From a virus: a DNA stretch of 64,000 bases. Below the pieces are notes generated by a model. The model was not told the origin of the DNA. It was given only the letters and a program-made list of their open reading frames with translations, and made no database searches. The position numbers and the translations under genes are program-made. Of the stretch, positions 2,938 to 21,036 are shown in pieces. The stretch covers positions 1-64,000 of the IMG/VR virus record IMGVR_UViG_3300021478_000001. One strand, given 5' to 3'. Numbering within the stretch: the stretch's first letter is position 1; each line of letters begins with the position of its first letter.

Positions 2938-3423
2938 CTAATGTCGGCAGTCTGGGCAGTCATCTGCATCTGCATAACCATGCGGACATGGGACATTTGG
3001 GGCATTTTTAAGAATTTCATACGCGGGTTGTCCTATCAATTTTCCGCGCTCGATCCCATCTAATCCGGTATCATCGTCATCTTGTTGTGCGTGATGGCCA
3101 CCATCTTCTGCACTCTGTTTTTGACTTAAACGTGCACGATACTCTGCCTCTACCAGCAATAGATAACGACGTAGATCTTGAATTTCTGCAAGAGTTGTGC
3201 CATCTGCACCAGGAGTATCGTCTTCATTTATGGCTGTGAAAACATTGTAGCTGAACACTTCAACCATATTTTCTAAACGATCCCATTTTCTAGCGAGCAT
3301 CATGAAGGCACCGACTCCTCCACGCTTCTTCCAGCTTCCGCGATATGTTCCTTCTTTAATTTCTAGTATTGTCACATCATCAAGAGCTACTTGTTTCAGG
3401 TATTCCATATGCTTCATGTTCAT
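2938..3423 (-). CDS. nucleotide-modification-associated all-alpha NTP pyrophosphohydrolase-like protein (Nmad1/DUF1599-like)
   Basis: YRGSWKKRGGVGAFMMLARKWDRLEN and TLAEIQDLRRYLLL helices; start moved to ATG 3423, which overlaps the TS stop and has a GGAG RBS. Confidence 0.6.
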   Translation of the reverse strand: MNMKHMEYLKQVALDDVTILEIKEGTYRGSWKKRGGVGAFMMLARKWDRLENMVEVFSYNVFTAINEDDTPGADGTTLAEIQDLRRYLLLVEAEYRARLSQKQSAEDGGHHAQQDDDDTGLDGIERGKLIGQPAYEILKNAPNVPCPHGYADADDCPDCRH

Positions 3424-4421: not shown

Positions 4422-5061
4422 CGTTTCCTCCCTGTTGCAACCAGTCGCGTATTGTTTGGAAGCTTCCCTGACGGCTGAGCAAGCGGCATTTTACACCTAT
4501 CGTCCGAAGTTTGACAAATTCTTTTTTACTCTTGTCATCCAGTGCGATGATGGTGTCTTGCTTTATGTTGTGGCCGCGGTCGTGTACGGCTTGTATGCAC
4601 TTGGTTATTGGATGGTCTATGAACACAACACGAACATCCAATCTAGCTTGATGCATGATCTTGATACGTTCTAGGCTGTCGTTGAAATTCTTGCCCTCAT
4701 ACAATACATCGGCGCCTAGCTCATGATGCTTGAGAACCAACTCATAAGCATAATTCAAGCTTGGCAATGTGTCAATACCGCCATTCTGGATTTCGTAGTG
4801 GCCGGGAACAAACAAGCGACGTGTGGTATCTCCTTTGGATCTAGGACATTCTGTTTCTTCGCTAGGTTTATAACCTTTTGGGAAGCTGACTGTACAGCTA
4901 CAGTCAGGATAAGAACAACTCCATGAGCATATGTAGCCCATGGGTTTTCGCTTGTTCACTTCCGGATAAGCTATCGCGATGCGCGTTGGATATAGATCCA
5001 TAACCTTGCGCACGATCGTGCTCTTGCCAGAACCATTTGTACCTCTGATATTCACAATCAT
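4399..5061 (-). CDS. P-loop nucleotide kinase (5hmdU-DNA kinase or hmdUMP kinase)
   Basis: N-terminal Walker A IRGTNGSGKST, GGIDT, VLYEG; adjacent to the TS homologue. Confidence 0.8.
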   Translation of the reverse strand: MIVNIRGTNGSGKSTIVRKVMDLYPTRIAIAYPEVNKRKPMGYICSWSCSYPDCSCTVSFPKGYKPSEETECPRSKGDTTRRLFVPGHYEIQNGGIDTLPSLNYAYELVLKHHELGADVLYEGKNFNDSLERIKIMHQARLDVRVVFIDHPITKCIQAVHDRGHNIKQDTIIALDDKSKKEFVKLRTIGVKCRLLSRQGSFQTIRDWLQQGGNDARPGGS

Positions 5062-5252
5062 TTTCTACCCTTCTTATAACAATCTGGACACTGATGTTTC
5101 CCAGCTATCATATGCCATATCAAATTCTTGAATGTTTTTATTGCTTGATCATAATCCGCTGTTCCAACAGTAAATTTCTTTGGACAAAAATCACAGTTAA
5201 AGACTGTGCGCCCACGAACCGCACCTTTTGTTTTAGTCACTGTCATTGTCAC
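5058..5252 (-). CDS. small Zn-ribbon protein
   Basis: CDFC...CPDC; GGAGG RBS upstream of GTG 5252. Confidence 0.55.
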   Translation of the reverse strand: MTMTVTKTKGAVRGRTVFNCDFCPKKFTVGTADYDQAIKTFKNLIWHMIAGKHQCPDCYKKGRK

Positions 5253-5343
5253 TCGGTTTCCTCCATGCGAAGTTTTCTCTTTTCCCAAGCTAATCGCGTT
5301 GAATATTACGATATCGTGAATGATTGATCCTTAAATGGCATTT

Positions 5344-6375
5344 TTATTTCTCCTTCCAAGGTATACGAAGAATCTTTTCTCTAGGGCCAGTTTTCATTGC
5401 TGCCACTATATCAGCTTTAGTTTGTTCATCAGGCTTGTGCAATTTACCTTTACCTAATAAATCTGGGAGCAAGCCTACTCTATAAGATCTATGATTACAT
5501 CCATCACATACCGGGATTGCTTTCCTTTCACCACGAATAAGCATTTCACGGGCAGCCCCTAAAGCATTTCCTTGCCAAATTTCCTCCATAGATTTTTCAT
5601 TTATGTTACCACAATTATATGTTGAATCCCAAGTGTTGCAACAAATCGGAACATTACCGTCCCAGTGTACAACGAATTGCCTGAATGGATGATGACACCG
5701 TTTCCCATCCATACTATGATCTGGTGCAAAAGCTAATCCAGCATAGTTGAAAACTTTACTATGATTACCAATCTTGCTTTCCTTGTCCTGTGCAGCAATA
5801 TCTCGTATTTGTACTAATGTTCTAGTTCCACGTGGCCGACGCATATGGGGATTACCTGCTTTGTCTTGTGGATATTTGTAAAATGTGAAACCTAATGGAT
5901 GTTTTTGTCCTGAAACCAACTCTCCTTTTTCTACAAGAGCGACTATTGTCTTCGGTACAAATTTCACAGTTTCATAATCATCTAGCCCAAGCACACTCAA
6001 TCCAGCTTGAAATAATCCTGTTATGTTCGCTATAGGTCCTGGTTTGCGTAATAGACCGCTTGCATTGGTAAGCATGGTGATGTGTGCTTTAGGAAGATGT
6101 TTGCGAACGATGCCGACCATACCGATGTAGTCTGGATGCATTGTAGGTTCGCCGCGCATGGCAAAACCAACACGGCAATTCCATTTCATTTCAGCTATCT
6201 GTTGCATCACTGTAGTGATGGTTTCTTTAGACATGAACTTATATCCATGTCCTGGTTTATCTTGGATAGCTGGCATAGCACAGAACGGACAATGGATGGA
6301 GCATCCAAGAGTCAGCTCAAGCGTGACGTTGAATGGATCTTCTTGTTTTCGATATGGTCGGCGCTTCATGTCCAT
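5344..6375 (-). CDS. radical SAM protein with SPASM/twitch domain
   Basis: CSIHCPFC (CxxxCxxC), RGEPTMHP, LTNA; C-terminal CHHPF..DGNVPICC..CGNI..CDGC. Confidence 0.92.
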   Translation of the reverse strand: MDMKRRPYRKQEDPFNVTLELTLGCSIHCPFCAMPAIQDKPGHGYKFMSKETITTVMQQIAEMKWNCRVGFAMRGEPTMHPDYIGMVGIVRKHLPKAHITMLTNASGLLRKPGPIANITGLFQAGLSVLGLDDYETVKFVPKTIVALVEKGELVSGQKHPLGFTFYKYPQDKAGNPHMRRPRGTRTLVQIRDIAAQDKESKIGNHSKVFNYAGLAFAPDHSMDGKRCHHPFRQFVVHWDGNVPICCNTWDSTYNCGNINEKSMEEIWQGNALGAAREMLIRGERKAIPVCDGCNHRSYRVGLLPDLLGKGKLHKPDEQTKADIVAAMKTGPREKILRIPWKEK

Positions 6376-6383
6376 GGTTCCTT

Positions 6384-6944
6384 TCAGTAAGGTATGTCTT
6401 CAGTGGTTCTGTCCATAATAAACTTTTGTTTTGTTAAGTCAATAGTGAGTCGCATCACTTTGGCTTGATACATGGCGTTGAGAAGAGTTTGCATCTTAGA
6501 ATTTTGGAGATTGGCGTCCAAGTATTCACCAAGTAGAGTGTCTGGAGCATCATTGCGTACAATGTCTACTTCATATATGCTAGCATTAGAATTAATTGGT
6601 TCTTCATCTGATGTGGATCCATATTCAATAAAATTTCCTTCAATAGCATCCCAAGAAACTAAAACATAGTCAGCATCATCATGTGGTCGAATACCATGAT
6701 CTACTAATTCGGAGGCTTTATCTATAGGAATTAGTTTGTATTTGTTTTGTATTTGAAACATCACATGAGTTAGCTTTTCTTTAATCGCTTGTGCAAAAGA
6801 CTCAATGTTGACTGCTACGTTCATACTATAGATTTTAGAGATACAGTGTAATGCTGTTCCTTCTATTGTTTTATCTGGTTTGAAACAGATAATTTTACCA
6901 TGTCTACCAATCTTGCCGTTTGGTCTATAGAATCCCATTGACAT
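6384..6944 (-). CDS. hypothetical protein within the modification cluster
   Basis: 186-aa AT-rich ORF with GGAG RBS, no recognisable motif, ends EDIPY. Confidence 0.65.
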   Translation of the reverse strand: MSMGFYRPNGKIGRHGKIICFKPDKTIEGTALHCISKIYSMNVAVNIESFAQAIKEKLTHVMFQIQNKYKLIPIDKASELVDHGIRPHDDADYVLVSWDAIEGNFIEYGSTSDEEPINSNASIYEVDIVRNDAPDTLLGEYLDANLQNSKMQTLLNAMYQAKVMRLTIDLTKQKFIMDRTTEDIPY

Positions 6945-6993
6945 TTTAGTTCTCCCTAATTCAGGTTTGAGCGCAGATGTCGTTCAGAACCTA

Positions 6994-7938
6994 TTACATA
7001 GCACCCTCCAACTGTTTGTATGCTGCCTTGATCTTGCCGTGCAACCCATCACGCTCGGCCAAGGCGGTATTATACCACAACATCTGTTGCTCTTTCTTAA
7101 TCTTGCTGCGTTCCTCCAACATACGCGCCGCATGCACTGCATTGGACACCAGAAACTTTTCTGGATTGTATCCGGCGCGGCGCAACGTCATGCCTGCTTC
7201 TTCTTCAAACACCATGGGCAGGCCCGCACTCAGCATTTCGTAGAACCTGTTTGGTGGTGAATGGTATTCGTTGTGTGATTTGCGATCCTCCAAATAAAGA
7301 CCGAGGCCACGTTCACTTAGCCATTTGAGCAAGTCATCAGCAATACCTATGGCTTTGATTTTTTCATTGGCATAAGATTCAAATTTCTTGCTCGGGCTTG
7401 ATATCGTGATATTGCATCTTGGATCTTTGAAGAATTTGTCAAATGCCTTGATACGACCAACGCGATAACTGCCATAGTAGGCTATATCGTTCTCATGCAT
7501 GTTGCTAGGCAACGGCTTGGCCAGCATGCTCAGGCAGTTCCAGTTGATATAGGTGCTGAGTGGTGTTGCTTTGCTTTCCTTTTCACATGTCGTCCAGAAT
7601 TCTAAGTGCGACTTGCCCATCTTGCGCCGCGCCACGAACGCTTGACGGAACGGTGATTTTGCATCTCCATTGTTGATAGGAGGAACAATGGTGTAGTCTT
7701 GCTGGATCCAGACGATACGATTGGCTCCCAGGATTGCTAGACTTAGTTCTTTCAAATGTTTGCAAAAACCATAGGCACCATTGACTATGAACAAGAGGTC
7801 CAAGTTGGTGCAGTCAGCAATTTGGTCATCCCAGATCAACGGTTTCTGCAACTCATTAGACAAGAACCTTGCGACTTTCGTGCTAGCCACCATTGAGCGC
7901 TCAGTGGCCGGGATGAAGCTGAAGATCACTGTTTTCAT
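6994..7938 (-). CDS. T4 DNA beta-glucosyltransferase-like GT-B enzyme
   Basis: DLLFIVN..F..LAILGA, WIQQD, DIAYYGSYRVGR, LYLED, NRFYEMLSAGLPMVFEEE, FLVSN parallel my recollection of T4 BGT segments (DRLIVVN..LAILSA, FTD, DVIYGGSFRSG, LRVWETMASDAVMLIDEE, FYVNN). Confidence 0.75.
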   Translation of the reverse strand: MKTVIFSFIPATERSMVASTKVARFLSNELQKPLIWDDQIADCTNLDLLFIVNGAYGFCKHLKELSLAILGANRIVWIQQDYTIVPPINNGDAKSPFRQAFVARRKMGKSHLEFWTTCEKESKATPLSTYINWNCLSMLAKPLPSNMHENDIAYYGSYRVGRIKAFDKFFKDPRCNITISSPSKKFESYANEKIKAIGIADDLLKWLSERGLGLYLEDRKSHNEYHSPPNRFYEMLSAGLPMVFEEEAGMTLRRAGYNPEKFLVSNAVHAARMLEERSKIKKEQQMLWYNTALAERDGLHGKIKAAYKQLEGAM

Positions 7939-8270
7939 GCTGATTGGCCTTTCTTCATTTCTGCAATTGTAGCTGGATCATCTTTACGATGAAGGCCGCG
8001 GTCTGGATCACCAGCACCATGCCGAACACGGTAGGTGTCGAACTCATCGGCTAGTGCCATGAGTCGTATACAGAACATGGCATTGTATCCTAAGCCTATA
8101 CCAGCTTGCGCATAGGCCCGGAGTGCAGCTGGTGCCGCAGGATCACGTGCGCCTAGCACAAAGCTTGGCCACTCGACGACAGTGCCATCGCGACGCTTGA
8201 CTAGATACTTGCCTTCCGGCGTTGCTGGATTATCTCTGATTAGAGCAGTCAATGTTGGTTTCTCTTTCAT
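7935..8270 (-). CDS. conserved-type small phage protein (FVLGARDPAAPAALRAYA motif)
   Basis: GGAGG RBS before ATG 8270; stop overlaps the GT start. Confidence 0.6.
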   Translation of the reverse strand: MKEKPTLTALIRDNPATPEGKYLVKRRDGTVVEWPSFVLGARDPAAPAALRAYAQAGIGLGYNAMFCIRLMALADEFDTYRVRHGAGDPDRGLHRKDDPATIAEMKKGQSA

Positions 8271-8442
8271 TTCTTCCTCCTTTAGCACGTCGCCTACGTC
8301 TAGCTAAATTTTCACGCTCCCTCACACTCACCCGGTAGCGTATGTCTGCCTCGATAGCGCGAATTTCCGCGCATTCAAAGCAATACTTTCGAAACCTGAT
8401 GCGCTCTATTGGTGCGGCACACCGTTCACATTCACCTTTCAT
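8230..8442 (-). CDS. small Zn-finger, Arg-rich protein
   Basis: CERC...CFEC; ATG overlaps the upstream stop. Confidence 0.5.
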   Translation of the reverse strand: MKGECERCAAPIERIRFRKYCFECAEIRAIEADIRYRVSVRERENLARRRRRAKGGRNERETNIDCSNQR

Positions 8443-9359
8443 GTTGCATCTTCCCATCGGTACTTCTGTTTTGGCATCTTATCTTCGAAGTTGGCTTGAT
8501 GCCATTTCGAGTATTCGCACAAGCAATTTTGAATATCTTGGGCATGTGGTTGTGGCATCTGCTCGGCCTTGAACATCGGCAATAGTTTTTCTCGCAGCCT
8601 CCCTAGTTCTAGGCGGAATTCATCCTCTTTCCAAACATCCTTGCGATTGCGGCCGCAAACATAATTTAATCCTCTTTTTGAACCGGGTCCACTGGCAGCA
8701 AACGTATGCCAGTCTGATGCTTGACGAAGAGGCTCGTGGTATTTTATATCAGCAATCACTTGTGCGGTCATGAAGCTGCCAAATCCTTGCATGCTGCCAA
8801 GCAATATGTGAAATGAGTTGAGTGTGTCACCTGCCTTTGGTCGCAGTCTTTCTCGTGCTTTCCACAATGGTTCAATCACTTCATGTGCTAGATAAGCAAC
8901 TTTTGGAATATGAAAAGAGTCTTTTGTTAAATAATCCATGTTATCAACACTCGTTCCGGCAGTTGATACCATGTAGGCACCATTAAAGATCTTGCCGCCA
9001 GTCTTATAATAGCGACCAAGCAATCGTAGAAAAGTTGTTTTGTTGAACGGCACTGGATAGCCAACTATTTCTAAACTTTCAGGTAGATTGAGTATACGGG
9101 CAACGCACATGGCGAACCATAGTTCCGGATCATTGCTGTGCGGATTGCGCCAATTTTCTCTGATCCAAACAGTAACCTTGTCATCTTCGCGGTAGATGTT
9201 GCAGAAGCGATAACCACTAAGAATAGGATCATTCGTCCATGGTGGTCTATCACCGGCTTGGCGGCGCATGTAAATCATGTATCGTTCATGAGCGAACGCG
9301 AATATACGTTCTACTGGATCCTTGATGTTTTTGATCATACGCTCTTTAGGATCTTTCAT
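8439..9359 (-). CDS. aGPT-PPlase clade 1 / 5hmdU DNA kinase helical-domain protein (HhH glycosylase-like fold)
   Basis: WTNDPILSGYRFCNIYREDDKVT, GAYMV, GFGSFMTAQVIAD, GPGSKRGL, DIQNCLCEYSK; GGAGG RBS before ATG 9359. Confidence 0.8.
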   Translation of the reverse strand: MKDPKERMIKNIKDPVERIFAFAHERYMIYMRRQAGDRPPWTNDPILSGYRFCNIYREDDKVTVWIRENWRNPHSNDPELWFAMCVARILNLPESLEIVGYPVPFNKTTFLRLLGRYYKTGGKIFNGAYMVSTAGTSVDNMDYLTKDSFHIPKVAYLAHEVIEPLWKARERLRPKAGDTLNSFHILLGSMQGFGSFMTAQVIADIKYHEPLRQASDWHTFAASGPGSKRGLNYVCGRNRKDVWKEDEFRLELGRLREKLLPMFKAEQMPQPHAQDIQNCLCEYSKWHQANFEDKMPKQKYRWEDAT

Positions 9360-9588
9360 GTTTGTGTTCCTCCTCGACGATTTCTCCAGTTTCTCTATCA
9401 AACTCATAAGCTACACCTTGCACTATATCACCCGCTACTAACGGCTTGCCTTTGCGCTTTAGTTCTATGACTCGTACATCATTGATCGTGACAGGACCGG
9501 TGTTGGTTTCTTTCGCAACGAAACCAATCCAATTTGTACGCATCCCTTCGATGATAGTATCTAGATCATTTTTGTCTTTCGACATCAT
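9346..9588 (-). CDS. hypothetical protein
   Basis: Coupled ORF in the operon. Confidence 0.5.
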   Translation of the reverse strand: MMSKDKNDLDTIIEGMRTNWIGFVAKETNTGPVTINDVRVIELKRKGKPLVAGDIVQGVAYEFDRETGEIVEEEHKHERS

Positions 9589-10094
9589 GGTGCGCCCCAT
9601 CGTGATAGATATTTGAACACAGCCATGCCATCCTCCGATGACAGACCTAACTTTTCCAGCGCGGCAAACGTGTCTGCTATGATAGGATGAGCGAACTGGT
9701 TTCCCATCAATAGTTCCACGCGGCCGAATTCATGCATGTCTATCAGGTCGCATGCCTTGGCGCGCAGCTTTTCTTGGCCAGAAATATCAGGAAACACTCC
9801 TCCCATATTCTTGACAGCTTCTGTTTCTAGTGTGTTTATCGTATGCTTCAGGATGTCATTGTTAGCTTTGACTGGGAATGGGAGATCACCAGTCACCAAT
9901 TCACCGGCGTCGTGCCAGATAAAGTAAGTAGTAATGTAGGCGTTCGGTGGTCCCCAGATTTCATCCCAGATACGCAAGCATTGCCAAGTGTGTTCACCTA
10001 CAGTTTGACGTTGATGCGTCATCCAAGTGTGGTAACGCATAACGCTTCCGGCATAGCGAGGATTGTGCAGCACATCGTTGCGTTTCAAGTTCAT
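9585..10094 (-). CDS. HD-domain phosphohydrolase (YfbR-like deoxynucleotidase)
   Basis: VMRYHT, QTVGEH, WHDAGELVTGDLPFPVK, KACDLID. Confidence 0.88.
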   Translation of the reverse strand: MNLKRNDVLHNPRYAGSVMRYHTWMTHQRQTVGEHTWQCLRIWDEIWGPPNAYITTYFIWHDAGELVTGDLPFPVKANNDILKHTINTLETEAVKNMGGVFPDISGQEKLRAKACDLIDMHEFGRVELLMGNQFAHPIIADTFAALEKLGLSSEDGMAVFKYLSRWGAP

Positions 10095-10104
10095 ATGGGC
10101 GCCT

Positions 10105-10248
10105 CTACATTTTATGAGATGCAACAGCAACAATGCAACCAGCTAGTCCCAGCGAAACGAAAACAGCCCAAGCGTCTTGCCACCAGAACCAAAGAAATAG
10201 CAAGCAGATGCCAAGTCCAAAATGGAATAAGCCAAGAAATAATTTCAC
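10105..10248 (-). CDS. 47-aa membrane peptide (absent from ORF track)
   Basis: GAGG RBS, GTG start, MKLFLGLFHFGLGICLLFLWFWWQDAWAVFVSLGLAGCIVAVASHKM; fills the intergenic gap. Confidence 0.55.
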   Translation of the reverse strand: MKLFLGLFHFGLGICLLFLWFWWQDAWAVFVSLGLAGCIVAVASHKM

Positions 10249-10785: not shown

Positions 10786-10923
10786 TTAAGGACTCCACAT
10801 CATCACGGCGTAAACAATGGCAGCTACTAGCACAGCCAAGAAAAGTTGGAACACGCCTAGACGACCTGCCGCCGCCAAGGCTCCAATCGTCAATATGATT
10901 AGAGCCATTAGCAACGGTTCCAT
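10786..10923 (-). CDS. 45-aa membrane peptide (absent from ORF track)
   Basis: ATG overlaps the SSB-like stop (TAATG); MEPLLMALIILTIGALAAAGRLGVFQLFLAVLVAAIVYAVMMWSP. Confidence 0.55.
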   Translation of the reverse strand: MEPLLMALIILTIGALAAAGRLGVFQLFLAVLVAAIVYAVMMWSP

Positions 10924-11828
10924 TAGTATGGGATTTTGTCTGGATCCCCGGCAGCATCAGCACGGTCGGCTTCATCTATGCCCGCATCTTCAGGCGCTTC
11001 CATCTTTCGGCCACTTCGGAAAGCTTCAGCCAGTGCTTGGCCCATCATGTAGGCTCTGTTAGGATCATTGCCTACAATCTTTAATCCTTCCCGATGAGGT
11101 TTTTCGGGAAAGCCACTCAGATAGAACATTGGTTCACCCACATCTATGGTATACCATTGTCCTTGATTGTTGCTCTGCATGATTGTAGTGAGATGATACA
11201 GATGGCTCCATGCTGGCCATATATTGCTGTTGTTGGTGTTGCTTCCTCCTCGCACGCGGCGTTGCAGACTGGTACGCTTGGTCATCCAGGATCTGCTGAC
11301 TTTGTGCCCGGTGCTTTTAAAAGGAATGACATAAGGATATGGATTCCCATCGTGCCACACAAAGCCCGCTTCGTATCGTGTGTCCACACAATCATTTCCA
11401 GTATCTGGAAAATAATAGCGTGGTCTGTTCTTTACCTTGTCGTCACGCGTCGCACCCTCTGGCAGCTTGCCACCATTGTAGTCGTAGCTGGCAATGAAGC
11501 CGCCACCTTGCGCTCGTGGGATCCATTCGGTCCACTTCTGGTACATCACACACGGTTGAAAATCGATGCCGACTTTTCCCTGTATGATAGGAACATGGAA
11601 ATTCTTGAGCCAGAAATCCCCGCTCCTCGCGTTTTCCATATGTGCTGGCCCGTCCAGAACCTGTGGACTCAATGGTTGCAGTACATAGATAAGAGGTACT
11701 AGATTATCAGCAGCATCAGTGCTGACGCCTTTCCCCATGTCTTCGTCAAGAGCGCGCAGAACTTCTTCGCTGACTGGAATTTCTTTTTCCAGTTCTGTGC
11801 CAGCAGTAGTCGCGGGGGCTTTAGCCAT
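10923..11828 (-). CDS. putative single-stranded DNA-binding protein
   Basis: LIYVLQPLSPQV, EWIPRAQGGGFI, NNQGQWY; acidic tail ending DPDKIPY; position in a PolA replication module. Confidence 0.65.
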   Translation of the reverse strand: MAKAPATTAGTELEKEIPVSEEVLRALDEDMGKGVSTDAADNLVPLIYVLQPLSPQVLDGPAHMENARSGDFWLKNFHVPIIQGKVGIDFQPCVMYQKWTEWIPRAQGGGFIASYDYNGGKLPEGATRDDKVKNRPRYYFPDTGNDCVDTRYEAGFVWHDGNPYPYVIPFKSTGHKVSRSWMTKRTSLQRRVRGGSNTNNSNIWPAWSHLYHLTTIMQSNNQGQWYTIDVGEPMFYLSGFPEKPHREGLKIVGNDPNRAYMMGQALAEAFRSGRKMEAPEDAGIDEADRADAAGDPDKIPY

Positions 11829-12449
11829 TTATTTCTCCTTCACTGGATTGAGCTTGACCATCTTGCTTACTGTAGCACCCAAGATGGTCAGATCTTTGTC
11901 GCTGAGCGGCTTGCCATCTTGAAAGCGTTCCTTCACCACGGCTGTCAAAGTTTTCCATGGCACCGTTTCTTCTATTGTTGGAACGACCCCAAGTTTAGTT
12001 AATGCTGCCAATACTTTTTTCAGCAGTTTGTCTTGTCCTAGTCCTAGTTCTATAGTCAAGGTGGTTTTGATGATGTCTCCCAGCTTGTGCTTGCGCACCC
12101 ATTGCAGCGCCGCTTTGCGCTGACTGGATGGCCAATCACTTTTGATCACTGCATGATAATGGTCATTCAGCTTGGCCTCATATGCTGGCAAGTTTCCTTG
12201 TGCAGCAATTTCCAAACGATTGAGACCTACCTGCATGAACATGGTGGGCAAAGCGTCAAAGATCAAGTTGCGCTTCGTCTGGTTTAGTTCGCTGATATGG
12301 TTTTCCAAATCAGCTATCTTGAATTCTATGTCGCGAACCTCCCTGATTTTATCACGTATGAATTCCAGCTTGTCGGCTGGCGGTTTGGTCGCCATGTCCT
12401 TTTCTATCTGCTCCAACAAAGCAGCGTTTGATGTTTTCTGTTCCATCAT
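11829..12449 (-). CDS. conserved phage replication-module protein (coiled-coil N-terminus)
   Basis: LPTMFMQVG, AALQWVRKHKLGDIIK, VPWKTLTAVVKE pattern typical of the gene preceding SSB in PolA phages. Confidence 0.7.
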   Translation of the reverse strand: MMEQKTSNAALLEQIEKDMATKPPADKLEFIRDKIREVRDIEFKIADLENHISELNQTKRNLIFDALPTMFMQVGLNRLEIAAQGNLPAYEAKLNDHYHAVIKSDWPSSQRKAALQWVRKHKLGDIIKTTLTIELGLGQDKLLKKVLAALTKLGVVPTIEETVPWKTLTAVVKERFQDGKPLSDKDLTILGATVSKMVKLNPVKEK

Positions 12450-12862: not shown

Positions 12863-14488
12863 TTAGTTGGATTTGGGCTTGAATGTTTTTAGTTCCTCAG
12901 TCCTGAGTGGTTTCCCATCTATGATCGATCGCATATAACGCCCTATTTCACCTTCCCCGACTATATCATCCTTATCCATTTTCTTGGCCCAGAACTCATC
13001 GGAAACTCCAACGTCCATTTCCTCCATCATGGCGTGGTCTTTTCCAGGCACAGTTATTTTCACTTGATATCCAGCCCATGTAAATTCTCGCACACCACGA
13101 AAATGCAGCTTGGTCACGGTGCCATCACTGCGCACATGCGGCCGCACCATATGGAACACTTTCTTGCGCACCCCATGTTCTGTTAGTTGATAATCCCGAT
13201 CTTGAAAGAAATAGCTCATGCGTCGTGGGTCAAGAGAGAACAAGGCATGCTGCCCTTTTTTGTTTATCACCGAGACACGGACCATGGAAAAGGCGGCATA
13301 CTCCAAGTGTTCTACCAAGCCACAGAACAAATTGTTCAACAGCTTCCTGCTGCTGGTATGGTGCAACTTGGCCCAATCGTCGGCATGGTGCGGCAGTTTC
13401 CAGGCGCGTTGTGGTATATGGTTCAATCCATATTTCTTGCTGTAGATGGGAAACATCTCTGTTGATATCGTGCGAAGTATTTCCACCTTGCCGTCAGCGC
13501 TTATGAAGATAGGATATTCTTCAGGCACTCCGTATTTCATTTTCTTTTCTTCAGGCTTATCCCACCACACGGTCATTTTGTAAACATCACCGCCATTCTT
13601 AGGCTGTACTTCCGGGGGTGCTTCGTGGTCCTGATATTTGACGAAGTACATGAACTTGGGAATCCATGTTCTATACTTATCCTTCTGTGGATCTTTGCGA
13701 TATTCACCACGTTCTATCTTTTCTATTTCTGGACTGGTGCCATAGGCCACGCATCCAAATGCTGGACGATGACGCAGGAACCACGATGATGGCTCGGCAA
13801 ATTTTCTGTATTCATTTTTAGGATGTTCTTTTTCTGGATCCCAGGTATCGGGAACGGCGAGATACGGCAGCAACATGGCACCAACATGAGTATAGAATTC
13901 GTAAGCGCCTTTGTCGTGCCTGCGCATCCGTTCTAGATAAACGTAGTAGCGTTCCAATTGGTCAAGCACAGTATCACGGAAATTAAACTCTCCAAATAAT
14001 TCATGTGGATCATACAGCACTTCTGTCTTGCGATCGCTGTGATGTTTATCAACTAGATATTTGTCAGCTATACTGAAATGATTACCATCATCAGTGTATT
14101 GAAGTTCTGGTTGTTTGACTTTCGGCTTGGGATTTCCTATGCGCTCTATCGGAGTTGGTGGCGTGCCCTGTGGCACCACGAACCTATCAAACTTGCGTCG
14201 TCGTCGTTCATAAATACGCGCCTCCTTGCTCATACCTCTCCGAGTGGCGCGATTGGGTTTGAACTCTGGTTGTTCTGGTTGTTCATCCTTCTGGCGATCC
14301 TGCGTCCAGCACTGGCCACATATATGCCCTTCATTCTCTGTGCCAAGAAGCACTGGATCTATCTGGTTGATTCCACAACGTGGGCACAGTTTTTTCTCGG
14401 CATCTTCTTTGGGTTCAGATGCTTGTGCTTTCTTCCATTTGAGTTTGGATACCAGTGAGCGAAACTTTTGCAGCAGATTGCGCCACAT
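12863..14488 (-). CDS. large hypothetical protein with N-terminal Zn finger
   Basis: Long ORF, GGAGG RBS before ATG 14488; CPRC..CGQC; C-terminal HMVRPHVR..HFRG. Confidence 0.75.
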   Translation of the reverse strand: MWRNLLQKFRSLVSKLKWKKAQASEPKEDAEKKLCPRCGINQIDPVLLGTENEGHICGQCWTQDRQKDEQPEQPEFKPNRATRRGMSKEARIYERRRRKFDRFVVPQGTPPTPIERIGNPKPKVKQPELQYTDDGNHFSIADKYLVDKHHSDRKTEVLYDPHELFGEFNFRDTVLDQLERYYVYLERMRRHDKGAYEFYTHVGAMLLPYLAVPDTWDPEKEHPKNEYRKFAEPSSWFLRHRPAFGCVAYGTSPEIEKIERGEYRKDPQKDKYRTWIPKFMYFVKYQDHEAPPEVQPKNGGDVYKMTVWWDKPEEKKMKYGVPEEYPIFISADGKVEILRTISTEMFPIYSKKYGLNHIPQRAWKLPHHADDWAKLHHTSSRKLLNNLFCGLVEHLEYAAFSMVRVSVINKKGQHALFSLDPRRMSYFFQDRDYQLTEHGVRKKVFHMVRPHVRSDGTVTKLHFRGVREFTWAGYQVKITVPGKDHAMMEEMDVGVSDEFWAKKMDKDDIVGEGEIGRYMRSIIDGKPLRTEELKTFKPKSN

Positions 14489-14489
14489 C

Positions 14490-14699
14490 TTAGTCCTCCC
14501 CATAGCTCCTAGGAAATCTGCAATTATTGCAGCGATGTCTCCAATCTCCATGCGCTTTATCAAGGGGTGGTAGAGCAGTCCATCCCTCGCTACGCAGTTT
14601 CTCTATGGCTTCATGAAAGTCAGCAGTTTCAGAAGCTAGAATTTCTTGGCAGGTATCACACTCAAACTCTATTTTGCCTTTGATCCTATGGAGGGTCAC
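14490..14699 (-). CDS. small Zn-ribbon protein
   Basis: CDTC...EGW...HRCNNC; GGAGG RBS. Confidence 0.6.
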   Translation of the reverse strand: MTLHRIKGKIEFECDTCQEILASETADFHEAIEKLRSEGWTALPPLDKAHGDWRHRCNNCRFPRSYGED

Positions 14700-15031: not shown

Positions 15032-16645
15032 TTAGATCAACCAGTCCTCATAGTTTGCGCCAGTGATTATCCTGGCTAGATCAAGCTTCTTGCGCAACGC
15101 CTTCACAATCTTTTCTTCTACCGTGCCACGTGTGATCAGATCAATATATGTCACGGTCTTAGTCTGTCCCACACGATGGTTCCTATCCTCTGCCTGATAT
15201 CGGTGTTCCAGGTCATAGCTGTTGGCAGCGAATATAACCAGATCGGCAACGTTCCAGGTGTTCCCTTTACCTCCAGTTTGAGGTGTGCTGAGCATGAACC
15301 GGCAATTAGGATCTCCAAGAAATCTTTTTTCATCCTCTGCCCGTGTCTTAACATTTCCACCCCAAAAACAAGCCACGGCTTGCGGCCCATACATTAAACT
15401 ACTGTCGCCGTTTTTCGCTGCGCGTATGGCGTGCGCCGTCTTGCGCAATTCACGATCGTATGTCACCCAGATAATCGCCTTGCCATCGTGTTCTTCCAAT
15501 ATATCTAGTATCGCATCAATGCGTCGGCTGGGAATGTCCTCGATTTCCCCGTCTTCGGTTTTCACATGGCCACACACTATCTGGTGCAAGCGCACCATCT
15601 GCGACAGCACATTGATTGCCGATACATACTTGCCACTCTTGAGTTCGGCCATCGCCTGATGACGTATGTCTTTATAGATTTTCGTCTGCTCAGGAGTCAA
15701 TGTCAAATCGCGTGGCTCATATACCTTGGGCTTCAGGTCCAAACAATCCTTCTTCATAACACGATAGCAGTATGGTTCGTACATCGTGCGCAGTTCATTC
15801 AGGTTCTGGTAATGATCTATCAACGGCACGCCTTCTATGTAGCCTCCGTTATTAATTATGAAATCAGCACGCTGCTGGATTGTCCAATCTTTGGTGTCCG
15901 GCATCCGTATTCTTTTCCTGGTGCACATCTGGCGCAGCCGCATATCCACTATCGGCTCGGGTGGTGCATTCATCAATCGCATCTTCGCATAGCGCGCCCG
16001 GAATGCCACGAAGCTATTGAAGTTGAGTATTCGCGGGTCCAGGAAATACATTTGATAAAATAGATCAAGCGGACTTCGTGGAACTATTAGTCCTGTTAAG
16101 ATTCGCCGACTACGCGCGAACTTGGCCAGCCGCATGATTGCTTTGGTGCGACTACTGCGACCATGACGGATGGTCGTGCTTTCGTCTATCACCATCATTC
16201 CTTTACCAGCACTGAGAAACTGTCGGCACAATAATTCAGTTTCAGTATCCTTGCCTCTGCTCAACGCTTCGATATTCACAAACAGAGCTCGCGGCACCTT
16301 GCCGTTGCTTTCTATCAAGGCAGCACGTCGGTTTCTATCAGCTGCGGTTTTTCTATTATTCGCTATCAGCAATTTCTTCAGCAACATAGGGTCTAGATGG
16401 GTTTCCAATTCGCTTTGTTGATCGTCGCTCTTGCTTTCATACCAATTGCGTATGCAGCCGTTCGGTGCGATTACCAATAAATCTGTCAACTCATTCTTGT
16501 TGACTCTTTGCTGCCACTCGTACAACACCATGGCAGATTTTCCAGTTCCAGTTTCAGCCATATGGGCAAACGCCATAGGCTTGCGCAATGCCCGCTTCAC
16601 AGCTTCTAGCTGATGCGTCATCGGAGTAGAACGGCTGACAAACAT
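15032..16645 (-). CDS. SNF2-family helicase
   Basis: ETGTGKS, IDEST, ILTG, GGKGNTW, QAEDRNHRVGQ. Confidence 0.93.
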   Translation of the reverse strand: MFVSRSTPMTHQLEAVKRALRKPMAFAHMAETGTGKSAMVLYEWQQRVNKNELTDLLVIAPNGCIRNWYESKSDDQQSELETHLDPMLLKKLLIANNRKTAADRNRRAALIESNGKVPRALFVNIEALSRGKDTETELLCRQFLSAGKGMMVIDESTTIRHGRSSRTKAIMRLAKFARSRRILTGLIVPRSPLDLFYQMYFLDPRILNFNSFVAFRARYAKMRLMNAPPEPIVDMRLRQMCTRKRIRMPDTKDWTIQQRADFIINNGGYIEGVPLIDHYQNLNELRTMYEPYCYRVMKKDCLDLKPKVYEPRDLTLTPEQTKIYKDIRHQAMAELKSGKYVSAINVLSQMVRLHQIVCGHVKTEDGEIEDIPSRRIDAILDILEEHDGKAIIWVTYDRELRKTAHAIRAAKNGDSSLMYGPQAVACFWGGNVKTRAEDEKRFLGDPNCRFMLSTPQTGGKGNTWNVADLVIFAANSYDLEHRYQAEDRNHRVGQTKTVTYIDLITRGTVEEKIVKALRKKLDLARIITGANYEDWLI

Positions 16646-18290: not shown

Positions 18291-18494
18291 TCGAGTCGCC
18301 ATAAAAAAGCTTGTACTCCAAATAAATCCGGCGCAGCATTGCCACCCTAATCCCTCGCGAGCATCCCATGCTAAACAGAATCTATGCAGCATTGGCAGCT
18401 TTGTTCATAGCTGGTGTCTTTGTTGCTGTCGGTGTGTTGATTGGTCTTGCGTTAGCTTCCAAATATCCACCCTGTGCACATAAGGAAAACGCCC

Positions 18495-20699
18495 ATGACC
18501 GAGCTAAGGCAGTCGGCACATACCTATATCGAGCATAACTGGCCCGTCTTCCCCTGCAATCCCCTCAACAAGCGTCCACTCACTGCACACGGACATTTGG
18601 ATGCATCACTGGACCCCAAGCAAATAGACACATGGTGGGCTATTACTCCCATGGCCATGCTTGGAGTACCCATGGGTCTGCCGAGTGGAGTCTTCTGCGT
18701 TGATCTAGACATAAAGGATAAAATCAGTGGCGTCGAAATGTGGAACATGATGATTGCCAGTGAAAATGCTGGCGTCGATGCTGATACTCGCATTCATAAT
18801 ACTCCGAGCGGCGGCAAGCATTACATCTTTATTTGGAAGGAAGGCATTCGTAATATTCCATTGGGCAAATTGATGCCCGGTGTAGAGATCAAGGCAGATG
18901 GCGGTTATATCGTCGTACCACCGAGCCGGATGGCAGACGGACGGGAATACACCAGCAATGGAAAAGCCATAGCAGATGCACCTGAATGGTTGATGCAACG
19001 TATCAATGAATATTTTGGTCTACGATCAGAAGAGCCACTCGACCCCGATGAAATAAAAACCAGTGAAGAAGTATTGCGCATGTTGGATGAAGACATGGGC
19101 AAAGGAGTCAACCTCGAAGATTCTTATGATTTTGGTCAAGGACCTGACATTGATGCTATCAACGCGGCACTGGACAGTATTCCGTCAGATGGATATGAAG
19201 ATTGGTATCGTCTCGGTGCTGCCATCTTCCGAGCATTAGGAGATAACGGATATACGACATTCCGGGATTGGAGTGCGAAGAGCAACAAGTTCAAAGAAAA
19301 AGAATGCCAGCGCAAATGGAAGCAAGTGAAGGACATCAAGGATATCAACATCGGCTCAGTGTTTTATTTTGCCGACATCAACGATTCCAGCTGGCGCGAC
19401 CGATATGAACAACGAAAAGAACATCAGCGTCTGCAACAAGAGAAACAGAGACAGCAGACACAGGATGATGTGAAACCAAAAAAGTTTTCCAAATTCCGTA
19501 CGTATGCTTTGTTTCCCATCGACGAGTCGCGCGTGCCACTACGACCATGGCTCGTCCCTGGATTATTCATGCGAGGACATTTAACGGCGACAGCCGCGCC
19601 TGGAGGAACCGGCAAATCTATTTTCACATTATGTATCGCCATCATGCTTGCGACAGGAAGATCGTGGAGCAATTGGACACCACGTCAACAATATCGCACA
19701 CTAATTATTAATCTAGAAGAAGACAGTGATGAAATGCGCAGGAGAGCATTTGCCGCTGCACAGCATAGCATGGGAATGAACGACAATAGAATATTGAAAG
19801 ATTGGATAATCGCTGCAGAATATGATACTCGTCTAGTGATAGCCAAACAGAACAAGGTAACTCGTAGCCTTATACGAGAACCTGTTGTTGATGATCTCAA
19901 GGAATTTATCCGCGATGAAAAATTCGACGTTATAATTATTGATCCGTTTGCAGAAACATATGAAGGTGAAGAAACTAATAGAGAGTTGAAATATGTTGGT
20001 AGTCTATGGAGAGAAGTAGCACGCGACACGCAAAGTGCTGTCTGGCTCATTCATCATGTTAAGAAATACGCGCAGGATCTGCAAGGAGATGTGGATGCAT
20101 TACGTGGCGGTGGCGCGTTAGGCAATCTAATTCGTGCAGCTACCACGATGTTTAATATGACAAAGGATGAAGCACAATTATATGAGGTACTAGAAGAAGA
20201 TCGCAAATTGTATGTTCGGTTCGATGATGCAAAAGGAAATTATAATCTACCGAACGCCAAAACTGTTTGGTTCAAAAAAGAAACTATGCAACTTCAAAAT
20301 GGATATGGGTCACTACCTAATGACAATGTCGGGGCGTTGATGCCTTGGAATGCGCCAGATAAGCTCGGGAATTTGACACAGGAAAACATTGAGAACTTGG
20401 TAAGTAAAATTGATCAAGGGATCATGGTTGAAAAAGGTATTGAATATTACACATTGAGCTCTACCAAGACATCAGGAAGTAGTCGTTGGGTTGGTTTCTT
20501 GATAGTTAAAGAATTAGGATGTTCAGACAAAACTGCTAGAGACATTATCAAAGCATTTGAACAACGTGAAATACTAGTATCGTTCCCATATGAATCTCCA
20601 GGTAAGCGTGAAACACGGCAAGGATGCGGGAGTAAAAGCAAACGTGCAACCATGCTACAGACGGTGAAAAAATCGACCAAGCCAGATACCCTATTTTGA
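18495..20699 (+). CDS. primase-polymerase / PriCT-2 / AAA helicase fusion
   Basis: WPVFPC..KRP, VDLD, TPSGGKHY, GGYIVVPPS; YEDWYRLGAA..WS (PriCT-2); APGGTGKS, IIDPF, IHH. Confidence 0.92.
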   Translation: MTELRQSAHTYIEHNWPVFPCNPLNKRPLTAHGHLDASLDPKQIDTWWAITPMAMLGVPMGLPSGVFCVDLDIKDKISGVEMWNMMIASENAGVDADTRIHNTPSGGKHYIFIWKEGIRNIPLGKLMPGVEIKADGGYIVVPPSRMADGREYTSNGKAIADAPEWLMQRINEYFGLRSEEPLDPDEIKTSEEVLRMLDEDMGKGVNLEDSYDFGQGPDIDAINAALDSIPSDGYEDWYRLGAAIFRALGDNGYTTFRDWSAKSNKFKEKECQRKWKQVKDIKDINIGSVFYFADINDSSWRDRYEQRKEHQRLQQEKQRQQTQDDVKPKKFSKFRTYALFPIDESRVPLRPWLVPGLFMRGHLTATAAPGGTGKSIFTLCIAIMLATGRSWSNWTPRQQYRTLIINLEEDSDEMRRRAFAAAQHSMGMNDNRILKDWIIAAEYDTRLVIAKQNKVTRSLIREPVVDDLKEFIRDEKFDVIIIDPFAETYEGEETNRELKYVGSLWREVARDTQSAVWLIHHVKKYAQDLQGDVDALRGGGALGNLIRAATTMFNMTKDEAQLYEVLEEDRKLYVRFDDAKGNYNLPNAKTVWFKKETMQLQNGYGSLPNDNVGALMPWNAPDKLGNLTQENIENLVSKIDQGIMVEKGIEYYTLSSTKTSGSSRWVGFLIVKELGCSDKTARDIIKAFEQREILVSFPYESPGKRETRQGCGSKSKRATMLQTVKKSTKPDTLF

Positions 20700-20909: not shown

Positions 20910-21036
20910 AAAAGGCAAAGAGCGGGAGGCTTGCGCAGTTTTGGTGCAGATATAAATGTTCAGGAAAAATCTGGATCGCTTGCATCGCGCCGCGTTTTGC
21001 GTTACAAGGCCGACCCAATGCCGCAAGGCCGCGCCA

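What the first reader, a model, noticed from the sequence alone, without database searches (positions are those of the whole stretch)
11724..11771. 16-aa motif shared by the SSB-like protein and the primase-helicase
The SSB-like N-terminus has SEEVLRALDEDMGKGV (11771-11724, minus strand). The primase linker between PrimPol and PriCT-2 has SEEVLRMLDEDMGKGV (19062-19109, plus strand). 15 of 16 residues are identical, yet 7 of those 15 codons differ synonymously, which points to selection on the peptide rather than a recent DNA duplication. Inference: a private docking motif. Either both proteins bind the same partner (polymerase, helicase or the 11829..12449 protein), or the primase mimics the SSB oligomerisation arm to load onto SSB-coated DNA.
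Basis: partly seen in the sequence, partly recalled or inferred. Interest (0 to 1): 0.78.

Follow-up and report, generated by a model that had tools for sequence, protein, structure and literature searches.

The report
Shared SSB-arm peptide on replication proteins
A phage's DNA-coating protein, the small protein encoded next to it and its primase-helicase all carry the same short floppy peptide, which changes in step in related phages, so it is most likely a private docking tag that brings these proteins together on single-stranded DNA.

Summary
Both 16-residue peptides are at the stated coordinates. They match at 15/16 residues and 37/48 bases, and 7 of the 15 identical residues use different codons. 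That is what codon usage alone predicts, so there is no trace of a recent DNA copy.

The "SSB-like" protein belongs to Pfam Pam3_Gp34. It has an OB-fold core closest to the phiC31 gp3/TG1 RDF and T4 gp32 type of SSB, an acidic IPY tail, and a poorly ordered N-terminal arm. The motif is that arm.

Three extensions:
- About 25 related PrimPol-PriCT2-helicase primases carry the motif at the same linker position, with D-x-G-K-G invariant. A subclade has lost it.
- The adjacent gp33-like protein (DUF7307) begins with a copy of the helical half of the arm in most of 32 dereplicated loci. The same is seen in cultured phages YuA and Pam3.
- Copies within one phage are more alike than copies between phages (permutation p<5e-5 for gp33/gp34; p=0.002 for primase/gp34).

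Best reading: a private docking peptide, probably received by the SSB core as in gp32 cooperativity. The receptor was not identified. This scan noted similar shared tags before on other phage DNA. I rate it a new variant of a known kind, interest about 0.6.

The parts
11724..11771 (-). Arm motif, copy 1: residues 20-35 of the gp34-like SSB-like protein. It is an amphipathic acidic helix (21-30) followed by a D-M-G-K-G-V turn.
   Evidence: In the AF2 model the helix spans 21-30 with pLDDT 56-64 and is not docked on the core. The motif is family-wide in the 113 of 120 homologues where it could be anchored; consensus P-A-E-L-x-x-x-M-x-x-D-A-G-K-G-V.
19062..19109 (+). Arm motif, copy 2: residues 197-212 of the primase-helicase, in the linker between Prim-Pol and PriCT_2.
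   Evidence: An HMM built from the gp34 arms finds, outside gp34 itself, the primase linkers first. D200, G202 and G204 are invariant and K203 nearly invariant among 20 motif-bearing primases.
12390..12428 (-). Arm motif, partial copy 3: residues 8-20 (NAALLEQIEKDMA) at the N-terminus of the gp33-like protein. It has the helical half only, including the rare D-M.
   Evidence: The AF2 model shows a helix at 6-19 with pLDDT 63-80.
10923..11828 (-). Gene for the gp34-like protein (301 aa): N-terminal arm, OB-fold core at about 40-280, and an acidic tail.
   Evidence: Pfam PF23977, E 8e-33. AF2 pLDDT 84.5 overall, core above 90. VIA-align top match is phiC31 integrase-RDF entry 9teh_I (Z 6.9, 154 aligned residues), followed by BRCA2 OB, T4 and RB69 gp32, LEF-3, Pf3 SSB, RPA and PRD1 P12.
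10926..10949 (-). C-terminal tip GDPDKIPY of the gp34-like protein, resembling the SSB C-terminal tip. This is a second candidate docking peptide.
   Evidence: The family consensus ends DDxIPF, and 53 of 120 homologues end in [ILMV]P[FY].
11829..12449 (-). Gene for the gp33-like protein (206 aa, DUF7307): arm-like N-terminal helix, long helix 27-74, and an alpha/beta domain. It lies immediately upstream of the gp34-like gene.
   Evidence: Pfam PF23984. It was found in the same locus as gp34-like, nearly always immediately upstream, in 68 loci. AF2 model; fold searches were uninformative.
18474..20699 (+). Gene for the PrimPol-PriCT_2-AAA_25 primase-helicase (741 aa from the GTG start; the database form has 734 aa).
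   Evidence: Pfam PF09250, PF08707 and PF13481; homologues.

Best explanation
The 16-residue peptide is the flexible N-terminal arm of a phage SSB-like OB-fold protein (Pam3_Gp34 family). It works as a short linear docking motif: an acidic amphipathic helix followed by a D-x-G-K-G-hydrophobic turn.

The same arm is displayed by the primase-helicase in its inter-domain linker. Its helical half also sits at the N-terminus of the gp33-like protein encoded next door.

All copies are read by one receptor site that evolves with the phage, so the copies change together. The most likely receptor is the core of a neighbouring gp34-like molecule on ssDNA. That is how the T4 gp32 N-terminal domain produces cooperative binding, and how the N-terminal extension of the TG1 RDF/SSB is predicted to bind other copies of itself.

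On this reading the arm strings SSB molecules together. The primase-helicase and gp33-like proteins use a copy of the arm to plug into, cap or open SSB-coated ssDNA, and so are recruited where priming or loading is needed.

Shown here: the peptide, its positions, its disorder, its conservation, the saturation of synonymous sites and the co-variation. Inferred: ssDNA binding, the docking function and the identity of the receptor.
For: 1. Protein-level selection. The copies share 15/16 residues while synonymous sites are at chance identity.
2. The carrier is SSB-like. The OB-fold core is closest to the phiC31 gp3 RDF (Z 6.9), gp32 (Z 4.8) and a run of further OB-fold/SSB matches such as RB69 gp32, LEF-3, Pf3 SSB, RPA and PRD1 P12. 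It has an acidic tail with an IPF/IPY tip.
3. The TG1 RDF, of the phiC31 gp3 family, is an experimentally shown SSB. Its disordered N-terminal extension is predicted to bind other RDF copies and a family A polymerase (PMC11795197). The gp32 N-terminal domain binds the core of the adjacent protomer (PMC12893549 abstract).
4. The arm is poorly ordered and undocked in the monomer model, pLDDT 56-64.
5. The primase copy has the anatomy of a short linear motif. It is a conserved island (D, G, K, G invariant or nearly so) in a gap-rich variable linker, and a subclade deleted it cleanly.
6. An HMM of the gp34 arms finds about 25 primase linkers and, more weakly, gp33 N-termini, and nothing else convincing.
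7. Co-variation between primase and gp34 arms. Same-phage identity is 9.25/16 against 6.8/16 between phages; exact permutation p=0.0023, or 0.017 without the window. The rare states M before G-K-G (4/113) and G-M-G (5/113) occur in both copies of the same phage: the window and L055.
8. Co-variation between gp33 and gp34 arms. The best same-phage 10-mer score is 23.1 against 16.3 +/- 4.3 between phages; the own partner scores best in 10 of 32; permutation p<5e-5.
9. None of 56 PrimPol primase loci without a gp34-like gene nearby has the motif.
10. gp33 and gp34 are the only constant pair. No other of the families tested is constant within +/-10 kb, and one complete genome with matching arms lacks PolA. 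This favours a receptor inside the pair.
Against: - No interaction was computed or measured. Only single chains could be folded, so the receptor is inferred by analogy and parsimony.
- The SSB assignment rests on moderate fold scores (Z 4-7; Foldseek PDB E only 0.014). No Zn site like that of gp32 is conserved.
Three lineages were verified on one contig: window/L003, L045 and L055.
- Related phages are not independent, so the permutation p-values are optimistic.
- Some phages with gp34-like arms have primases without the motif (L004, L048, L049, L051), so the primase link is dispensable.
- In the window the gp33-like copy is weak (3 identities plus 3 conservative matches of 12).
Confidence: 0.5

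Rival explanations
1. The peptide is a shared docking tag, but the receptor is a third protein: the family A DNA polymerase, the SNF2-type helicase, another phage protein or a host protein. This would be the T7 arrangement, where the SSB and the primase-helicase both tether to the polymerase.
For: The TG1 RDF N-terminal peptide is predicted to bind a family A polymerase as well as itself (PMC11795197). The window encodes PolA at 928-2928 (-) and an SNF2 helicase at 15032-16645 (-). From my own knowledge, the T7 gp2.5 and gp4 tails bind gp5. All the conservation and co-variation evidence fits this reading equally well.
Against: None of the other families tested is constant next to gp33/gp34 (SNF2 14/25, PolA 10/25 within +/-10 kb). 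A complete 73.7-kb genome with matching gp33/gp34 arms has no PF00476 match. A host receptor would not easily explain arms that differ strongly between phages from similar soil samples.
Confidence: 0.25
2. The helices pair with each other, like with like, in a small helical bundle or coiled coil that joins gp33-like, gp34-like and primase. Similarity is kept because each helix packs against its own kind.
For: The shared core is an amphipathic helix with hydrophobic positions at i, i+1, i+4 and i+8. gp33-like continues into a 48-residue helix typical of coiled coils. All three copies keep the helical half, but only two keep the G-K-G turn.
Against: The helix is only about 10 residues long and net acidic, which is poor for self-association. 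The invariant D-x-G-K-G turn in gp34 and primase suggests recognition of an epitope, not a zipper. No model shows pairing.
Confidence: 0.12
3. The match is a relic of a past copy or gene-conversion event between the two genes, with no present function.
For: The window pair (15/16) is much more alike than pairs in other phages (5-12 of 16). The window's gp34 arm resembles the primase arms of the window and P0129 more than it resembles most other gp34 arms. This could reflect an old transfer of the primase version into gp34-like.
Against: Synonymous sites are at chance identity, so any transfer is old, and only purifying selection could then keep 15/16 residues. The motif is at a homologous position in about 25 primases and family-wide among gp34-like proteins, with invariant residues.
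Confidence: 0.04
4. The shared feature acts at the nucleic-acid level (an operator, RNA structure or translational control site), or the peptide is a processing or targeting signal, not a docking site.
For: From my own knowledge, T4 gp32 autoregulates on its own mRNA. The copies lie near the 5' ends of two adjacent genes (gp33-like and gp34-like).
Against: Bases are conserved no more than the protein sequence requires. The copies lie on opposite strands. The primase copy is internal (residue 197), and the gp34 copy starts at variable distances from the N-terminus. This does not fit an N-terminal signal or a 5' RNA element.
Confidence: 0.03

Closest known systems
T4 gp32 N-terminal (B) domain
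   Same: It is a short N-terminal arm on an OB-fold phage SSB that reaches the core of the neighbouring protomer and produces cooperative ssDNA binding (PMC12893549). The protein also has an acidic C-terminal partner-binding tail. The gp34-like core aligns to gp32 structures at Z 4.8 (8gme_B) and 4.4 (2atq_B).
   Different: The gp32 arm is basic (the LAST motif, from my own knowledge); this arm is acidic and helical. No Zn site is conserved here. I know of no report of gp32's arm being copied onto primase or other T4 proteins. There is no detectable sequence relation.
TG1 gp25 / phiC31 gp3 recombination directionality factor, a moonlighting phage SSB
   Same: It is the best structural match (9teh_I, Z 6.9, 154 aligned residues). 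TG1 RDF binds ssDNA in vitro and has a 27-residue poorly ordered N-terminal extension. That extension is predicted to bind other RDF copies and a family A polymerase through the same hydrophobic residues (PMC11795197).
   Different: The arm sequences differ (F/L/W-based there, from that paper; acidic helix plus G-K-G here). That paper does not describe copies of the arm on primase or on a neighbouring protein, nor co-variation. No integrase link is seen here.
T7 replisome: acidic C-terminal tails of gp2.5 (SSB) and gp4 (primase-helicase)
   Same: The SSB and the primase-helicase carry the same kind of short acidic peptide and thereby share one docking site (from my own knowledge: on gp5 polymerase/thioredoxin). 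In relatives of this phage, seven PrimPol-helicases also end in an SSB-like [DE]x[ILM]P[FY] tip like the gp34-like tail.
   Different: The motif studied here is not C-terminal. It is N-terminal in the SSB-like protein and internal in the primase. It is helical with a G-K-G turn, and a third protein (gp33-like) shares it. The receptor is unknown.
Bacterial SSB C-terminal tip (SSB-Ct, ...DDDIPF) and clamp-binding or PIP-box motifs
   Same: The logic is the same: one short peptide, displayed by one or several proteins, is read by a common pocket. The gp34-like family also ends in DDxIPF-like tips.
   Different: SSB-Ct, clamp-binding and PIP motifs are conserved across whole domains of life. This arm is private to a phage lineage and drifts quickly, with its copies drifting together.

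Membership tests
Pfam PF23977 Pam3_Gp34 (carrier of copy 1) | Match to the family HMM above the curated cut-off | tested here: met
   114.7 bits against a cut-off of 27, E 8e-33, residues 29-272. There are 168 homologues at E<=1e-5.
Pfam PF23984 DUF7307, Pam3 gp33-like (carrier of copy 3) | Match to the family HMM above the cut-off, and a position immediately upstream of gp34-like | tested here: met
   42.3 bits against a cut-off of 27. All 25 aligned neighbours match. Found in the same locus as gp34-like, nearly always immediately upstream, in 68 loci.
PrimPol-PriCT_2-AAA_25 primase-helicase (carrier of copy 2) | The three Pfam domains in this order | tested here: met
   PF09250 at 15-172, PF08707 at 231-300, PF13481 at 350-532, all above their cut-offs.
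gp32 / phiC31 gp3-type phage SSB | OB-fold ssDNA-binding core | tested here: inconclusive
   VIA-align gives Z 6.9 to 9teh_I, 4.8 to gp32, and a list dominated by OB-fold SSBs. But Z is below 8, and the best Foldseek PDB E-value is 0.014.
gp32 / phiC31 gp3-type phage SSB | Zinc-binding site in the core (His/Cys ligands) | tested here: not met
   No Cys or His is invariant among 35 family members (H175 is nearly invariant), and the window protein has only two Cys.
gp32 / phiC31 gp3-type phage SSB | Flexible N-terminal arm plus acidic C-terminal tail flanking the core | tested here: met
   pLDDT is below 65 for residues 1-40 and below 60 for 281-301. The last 30 residues average 25% D+E against 9% K+R across 120 homologues.
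gp32 / phiC31 gp3-type phage SSB | Binds ssDNA, cooperatively | not testable with these tools
   Needs EMSA or a single-molecule assay.
Bacterial SSB (PF00436) | Sequence match to the SSB OB domain | tested here: not met
   No Pfam hit other than PF23977 at E<=0.01. No PDB sequence match.
Bacterial SSB (PF00436) | C-terminal acidic tip ending I/L-P-F | tested here: met
   The window protein ends DKIPY. The family consensus is DDxIPF, and 53/120 homologues end in [ILMV]P[FY].
Short linear docking motif (SLiM) | A short conserved island in a disordered or variable region, separable from the folded domains | tested here: met
   Low pLDDT. Gap-rich variable flanks with invariant D, G, G and nearly invariant K. 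Clean loss in a primase subclade without loss of domains.
Short linear docking motif (SLiM) | Binds a defined pocket on a partner | not testable with these tools
   No multimer prediction or binding assay was available.
T7-type shared SSB / primase-helicase tail | The same peptide on the SSB and on the primase-helicase | tested here: met
T7-type shared SSB / primase-helicase tail | The peptide is the acidic C-terminus ending in an aromatic residue | tested here: not met
   The motif is N-terminal in one protein and internal in the other. A separate C-terminal tip of that kind exists on gp34-like and on some relatives' primases, but the window primase ends ...PDTLF.

The most novel reading that the evidence does not exclude
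Phages that carry the gp33-like/gp34-like pair, including cultured YuA-type and Pam3-type phages, may wire their replication and recombination proteins with a private two-peptide address code taken from the SSB itself. One peptide is the N-terminal arm and the other is the C-terminal IPF tip. Primase-helicases copy either or both. The arm drifts fast, with all its copies drifting together, which would keep each phage's machinery orthogonal to that of co-infecting relatives and of the host.
Probability: 0.25. Interest if true: 0.8.

Novelty: new variant of a known kind. Interest (0 to 1): 0.6.

Why it matters
- It gives a first functional handle on two widespread phage families of unknown function, PF23977 and PF23984. 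These occur in hundreds of Pseudomonas, Bordetella, Burkholderia and cyanobacterial phages.
- It proposes that PF23977 is the SSB of these phages.
- It points to a testable wiring rule for their replisomes: an SSB arm that is copied onto the primase-helicase and onto a neighbouring coiled-coil protein.
- Docking peptides shared by an SSB and a primase-helicase are known as C-terminal tails in T7. An N-terminal or internal, helical, fast co-evolving version would extend that principle.
- Because the peptide is short and lineage-specific, it could serve to predict which replication proteins work together, and as an orthogonal tether in engineered phages.

Tried and rejected
- **Context look-ups closed.** Gene context of the closest homologues could therefore not be fetched.
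- I stopped that form and recomputed the test from stored records by id (one search failed on a regex; one search ran).
- **Third copy in the window.** None found. The best other 16-mer (7/16, inside PolA at 2389-2436) is at chance level.
- **Recent duplication or gene conversion.** Rejected, because synonymous sites are at chance identity.
- **Sequence searches against solved structures.** Nothing for gp34-like or gp33-like.
- **Foldseek against PDB.** Nothing significant for either model.
- **BFVD.** Only uncharacterised viral proteins, plus one annotated SSB at rank 48.
- **gp33-like fold.** VIA-align matches were dominated by the long helix, so the alpha/beta domain stays unassigned. The "host-nuclease inhibitor" label on Pam3 gp33 found no support in Pfam at E<=1.
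- **Protein Atlas.** It returned only the protein's own family.
- **Literature.** No paper mentions PF23977, PF23984 or DUF7307, and the Pam3 gp34 search gave nothing functional.
- **Fused forms.** A search for longer fused forms of gp34-like (Rosetta-stone evidence) found none, which is weak evidence.
- **IMG/VR scan with the primase profile.** Only one more motif-bearing locus, the window's 99% relative.
- **Constant third gene as hub candidate.** No candidate family was constant within +/-10 kb of the pair.
Full report
**1. The observation**

Window 11724-11771 (-) translates to SEEVLRALDEDMGKGV and 19062-19109 (+) to SEEVLRMLDEDMGKGV. They match at 15 of 16 residues and 37 of 48 bases. Of the 15 identical residues, 8 use the same codon and 7 a synonymous one. 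The flanks are unrelated.

No third copy exists in the window. The next best 16-mer has 7/16 identities, about what chance gives for 128,000 positions.

I drew codons independently from the usage of nine neighbouring genes. This predicts 6.5 +/- 1.7 identical codons (8 observed, P=0.27) and 34.8 identical bases in those codons (37 observed, P=0.22). The DNA is therefore no more alike than the shared peptide forces it to be. Any copying event is old, and the peptide has been held by selection.

**2. The genome and the carriers**

The window is the first 64 kb of an 86.9-kb IMG/VR virus record with direct terminal repeats. It is far from all cultured phages.

Around the finding lies a replication module next to a thymidine-hypermodification cluster:
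- PolA, 928-2928 (-)
- thymidylate-synthase-like, radical-SAM/SPASM and 5-hmdU-kinase-type genes
- an SNF2-type helicase, 15032-16645 (-)
- a 566-aa protein with no family match

Copy 1 lies in a 301-aa protein of Pfam family Pam3_Gp34 (PF23977, E 8e-33). The gene just upstream of it (11829-12449) is Pam3 gp33-like (PF23984, DUF7307). Copy 2 lies at residues 197-212 of a 741-aa Prim-Pol (15-172) / PriCT_2 (231-300) / AAA_25 (350-532) primase-helicase, which places it in the inter-domain linker.

**3. What the gp34-like protein is**

An AlphaFold2 model built on 35 homologues has mean pLDDT 84.5. The core (about 40-280) is above 90. Residues 1-40 are at 46-64 and the last 20 at 52-56. The motif forms helix 21-30 followed by a loop and is not packed on the core.

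A search of about 48,000 PDB representatives puts the phiC31 integrase-RDF entry first (9teh_I, Z 6.9, 154 aligned residues). Next come BRCA2 OB folds, T4 gp32 (8gme_B, Z 4.8), RB69 gp32, baculovirus LEF-3, Pf3 SSB, Rim1, RPA and PRD1 P12. Foldseek alone is weak, with RPA on top at E 0.014.

The family ends in an acidic tail whose consensus is DDxIPF. Of 120 homologues, 53 end in [ILMV]P[FY], and the window protein ends GDPDKIPY.

The phiC31 gp3 family has recently been shown to contain a working SSB. TG1 RDF binds ssDNA, has a gp32-like OB core, and has a 27-residue poorly ordered N-terminal extension. A virtual pull-down predicts that this extension binds other RDF copies and a family A polymerase through the same hydrophobic residues (PMC11795197). 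In T4 gp32 the N-terminal domain binds the core of the adjacent ssDNA-bound protomer and creates cooperativity (PMC12893549 abstract).

I therefore accept "SSB-like" as the best reading at about 0.7. Two caveats apply: the fold scores are moderate, and no gp32-type zinc site is conserved. On this reading the motif is the N-terminal arm of that SSB-like protein.

**4. The arm is family-wide in gp34-like proteins**

In the 113 of 120 homologues where a regular expression could anchor it, the arm sits just before the core. Its consensus is [V/P/L]-P-A-E-L-x-x-x-[M/L/I]-x-x-D-A-G-K-G-V, followed by S-T-x3-D-N-L-V-P. G-x-G was required by the anchor, so its invariance in that set is not independent evidence. 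D before it is present in 84/113. The helical part varies strongly between lineages.

**5. The primase copy is old, positionally homologous and facultative**

Among 97 primase homologues, about 25 carry the motif at the same alignment position in the Prim-Pol/PriCT_2 linker. The flanks are gap-rich, acidic and rich in Pro and Gly.

In an alignment of 20 motif-bearing primases, D200, G202 and G204 are invariant and K203 nearly so. That is as conserved as catalytic residues. A subclade (P0132-P0140 and a few others) has the segment cleanly deleted.

A 17-column HMM built only from gp34 arms, run over all ORFs of the fetched loci and all primase homologues, gave this ranking outside gp34 itself: primase linkers (6-18 bits), then gp33-like N-termini at weak scores, and nothing else convincing.

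In 59 IMG/VR loci holding PrimPol-type primases, only three have a gp34-like gene nearby. The only primase with the motif is the window's 99% relative. In the data I could reach, the motif occurs on primases only in phages that have the gp34-like protein.

**6. A third carrier: the gp33-like neighbour**

A gp33-like gene was found in the same locus as the gp34-like gene, nearly always immediately upstream of it, in 68 fetched loci. Its N-terminus, usually right after the start Met, resembles the helical half of its own phage's gp34 arm. The arm type differs between phages. Examples from tool output, written gp33 then gp34:
- L055: DFESRMRADA, DFDKAMRADA
- L006: DLDALMRQDA, DLDEMMRQDA
- L054: MDDIDKDLLD, MDDIDNLLYE
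- L010: EPPAFLAQAI, APPAFLQAQI

The same is visible in cultured phages: YuA gp04/gp05 and Pam3 gp33/gp34.

Over 32 loci dereplicated at 60%, the best ungapped 10-mer score between a gp33 N-terminus and the gp34 arm of the same phage averages 23.1, against 16.3 +/- 4.3 for other phages. The own partner is the best of 32 in 10 cases, and no permutation out of 20,000 reached the observed sum.

In the window the gp33-like copy is NAALLEQIEKDMA (12390-12428). It is weak overall (3 identities and 3 conservative matches of 12). It does share the D-M that is rare in the family: M at that position occurs in 4/113 gp34 arms.

The gp33-like model shows helix 6-19, a long helix 27-74 and an alpha/beta domain. 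Fold and profile searches gave no function.

**7. Co-variation of the primase and gp34 arms**

Pairs verified on one contig are window/L003, L045 and L055.

With eight lineages, same-phage identity is 9.25/16 against 6.8/16 between phages. The exact permutation p is 0.0023, or 0.017 without the window.

Rare states coincide within phages. M before G-K-G is found in both window copies. G-M-G (5/113) is found in both L055 copies, where all three proteins read alike.

The window primase arm is closest to the primase arm of P0129 (9/12 in the helical part). The window gp34 arm is closer to these primase arms than to most other gp34 arms. The near-identity here may reflect the gp34 arm having moved towards the primase version, or an old transfer that selection then held.

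These tests ignore phylogenetic non-independence and are small. I read them as clear for gp33/gp34 and moderate for primase/gp34.

**8. A second shared peptide**

Seven PrimPol-helicases of relatives end in [DE]x[ILM]P[FY], like the gp34-like tail. Three of them (P0152, P0156, P0158) carry both the linker arm and the tip. A D5-type primase in L006 ends EDHIPF, and one gp33-like protein ends DDIIPY.

So primases in this group tend to copy both flexible peptides of the SSB-like protein. This is the T7 logic (gp2.5 and gp4 tails, from my own knowledge) applied twice.

**9. Mechanism**

The anatomy is that of a short linear docking motif displayed by up to three replication proteins and read by one co-evolving site.

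Which site it is was not determined, because only single chains could be folded here. I favour the gp34-like core of a neighbouring protomer for three reasons:
- The gp32 and TG1 precedents point that way.
- gp33-like and gp34-like are the only constant pair. None of the other families tested is constant within +/-10 kb (SNF2 14/25, PolA 10/25).
- A complete genome with matching arms lacks PolA.

A sub-variant is that the acidic arm occupies the basic ssDNA cleft of the OB core. From my own knowledge this has been shown for the acidic tail of T7 gp2.5. In that case the primase copy would help displace the SSB-like protein where a primer is needed.

The rivals are a third-protein hub, like-with-like helix pairing, a functionless relic, and a nucleic-acid or processing signal. 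Each is given with its weight in the structured fields.

**10. Novelty and verdict**

No paper in the library mentions these two families. The TG1 study describes an N-terminal SSB extension with predicted partners, but not its duplication onto other proteins or its co-variation.

Earlier notes of this scan, which are unchecked AI notes, report similar shared tags on SSBs and partners in other phages. These include N-terminal ones in a Streptomyces-type phage and in SP6-like phages. The kind of thing is therefore recurring, and this case is a further form of it.

I rate it a new variant of a known kind. Interest 0.6.

**Limits**

Noticed in passing
window 6384-6944 (-) and 10926-10949 (-); proteins P0145, P0149, P0152, P0156, P0158, P0172, P0177, P0123; L069:1071-1703: There is a second shared peptide. 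The gp34-like protein ends GDPDKIPY and an unrelated 186-aa orphan ends TTEDIPY. In relatives, seven PrimPol-helicases, one D5-type primase and one gp33-like protein end in the same SSB-tip-like [DE]x[ILM]P[FY]. Three primases carry both the arm motif and the tip.
   Followed up: partly
L080 (Pseudomonas phage YuA gp04/gp05) and L081 (Pseudanabaena phage Pam3 gp33/gp34): Cultured phages show the same pairing of a short N-terminal peptide on the two adjacent proteins: an A-Y-x-D-Y type in YuA and a Y-E-x-x-A type in Pam3. They could serve as experimental models. Pam3 gp33 is annotated 'host-nuclease inhibitor' and gp34 'ATP-binding protein'; I found no support for either label.
   Followed up: partly
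window 2389-2436 (-), inside PolA: PolA residues of about 165-180 read QEEVLRDYAQAMGFDP, which shares EEVLR and 7/16 positions with the motif. This is within chance expectation for the window and lies in the exonuclease domain.
   Followed up: partly
window 12863-14563 (-): A 566-aa protein lies between the SNF2 helicase and the gp33-like gene. It has no Pfam or PHROG match and a Cys-x2-Cys ... Cys-x2-Cys zinc-ribbon-like stretch near the N-terminus. A homologue was seen in only 2 of 25 related loci.
   Followed up: no
window 2938-10133 (-): A thymidine-hypermodification cluster lies next to PolA. It holds a thymidylate-synthase-like gene, a weak P-loop 5-hmdU kinase match, a radical-SAM/SPASM gene, a 5-hmdU DNA kinase helical-domain protein and an HD/YfbR-like hydrolase. 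Earlier notes of the scan cover it.
   Followed up: no
window 20956-21513 (+): A 185-aa protein with a NusG N-terminal domain (PF02357, E 1e-8) is encoded just downstream of the primase-helicase. It is a possible phage transcription antitermination factor.
   Followed up: no
L014 / G003 (IMGVR_UViG_3300047160_005424, 73.7 kb, complete): This is a complete phage genome with a gp33/gp34 pair and matching arms but no family A polymerase match. Its replicative polymerase is unidentified.
   Followed up: no
P0185 (431 aa, Prim-Pol only): This shorter PrimPol protein carries the arm motif at residues 271-286, followed by G-K-G-T-S-T-R-P-A-D. That continues the resemblance to the gp34-like arm/core junction further than in other primases.
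   Followed up: no
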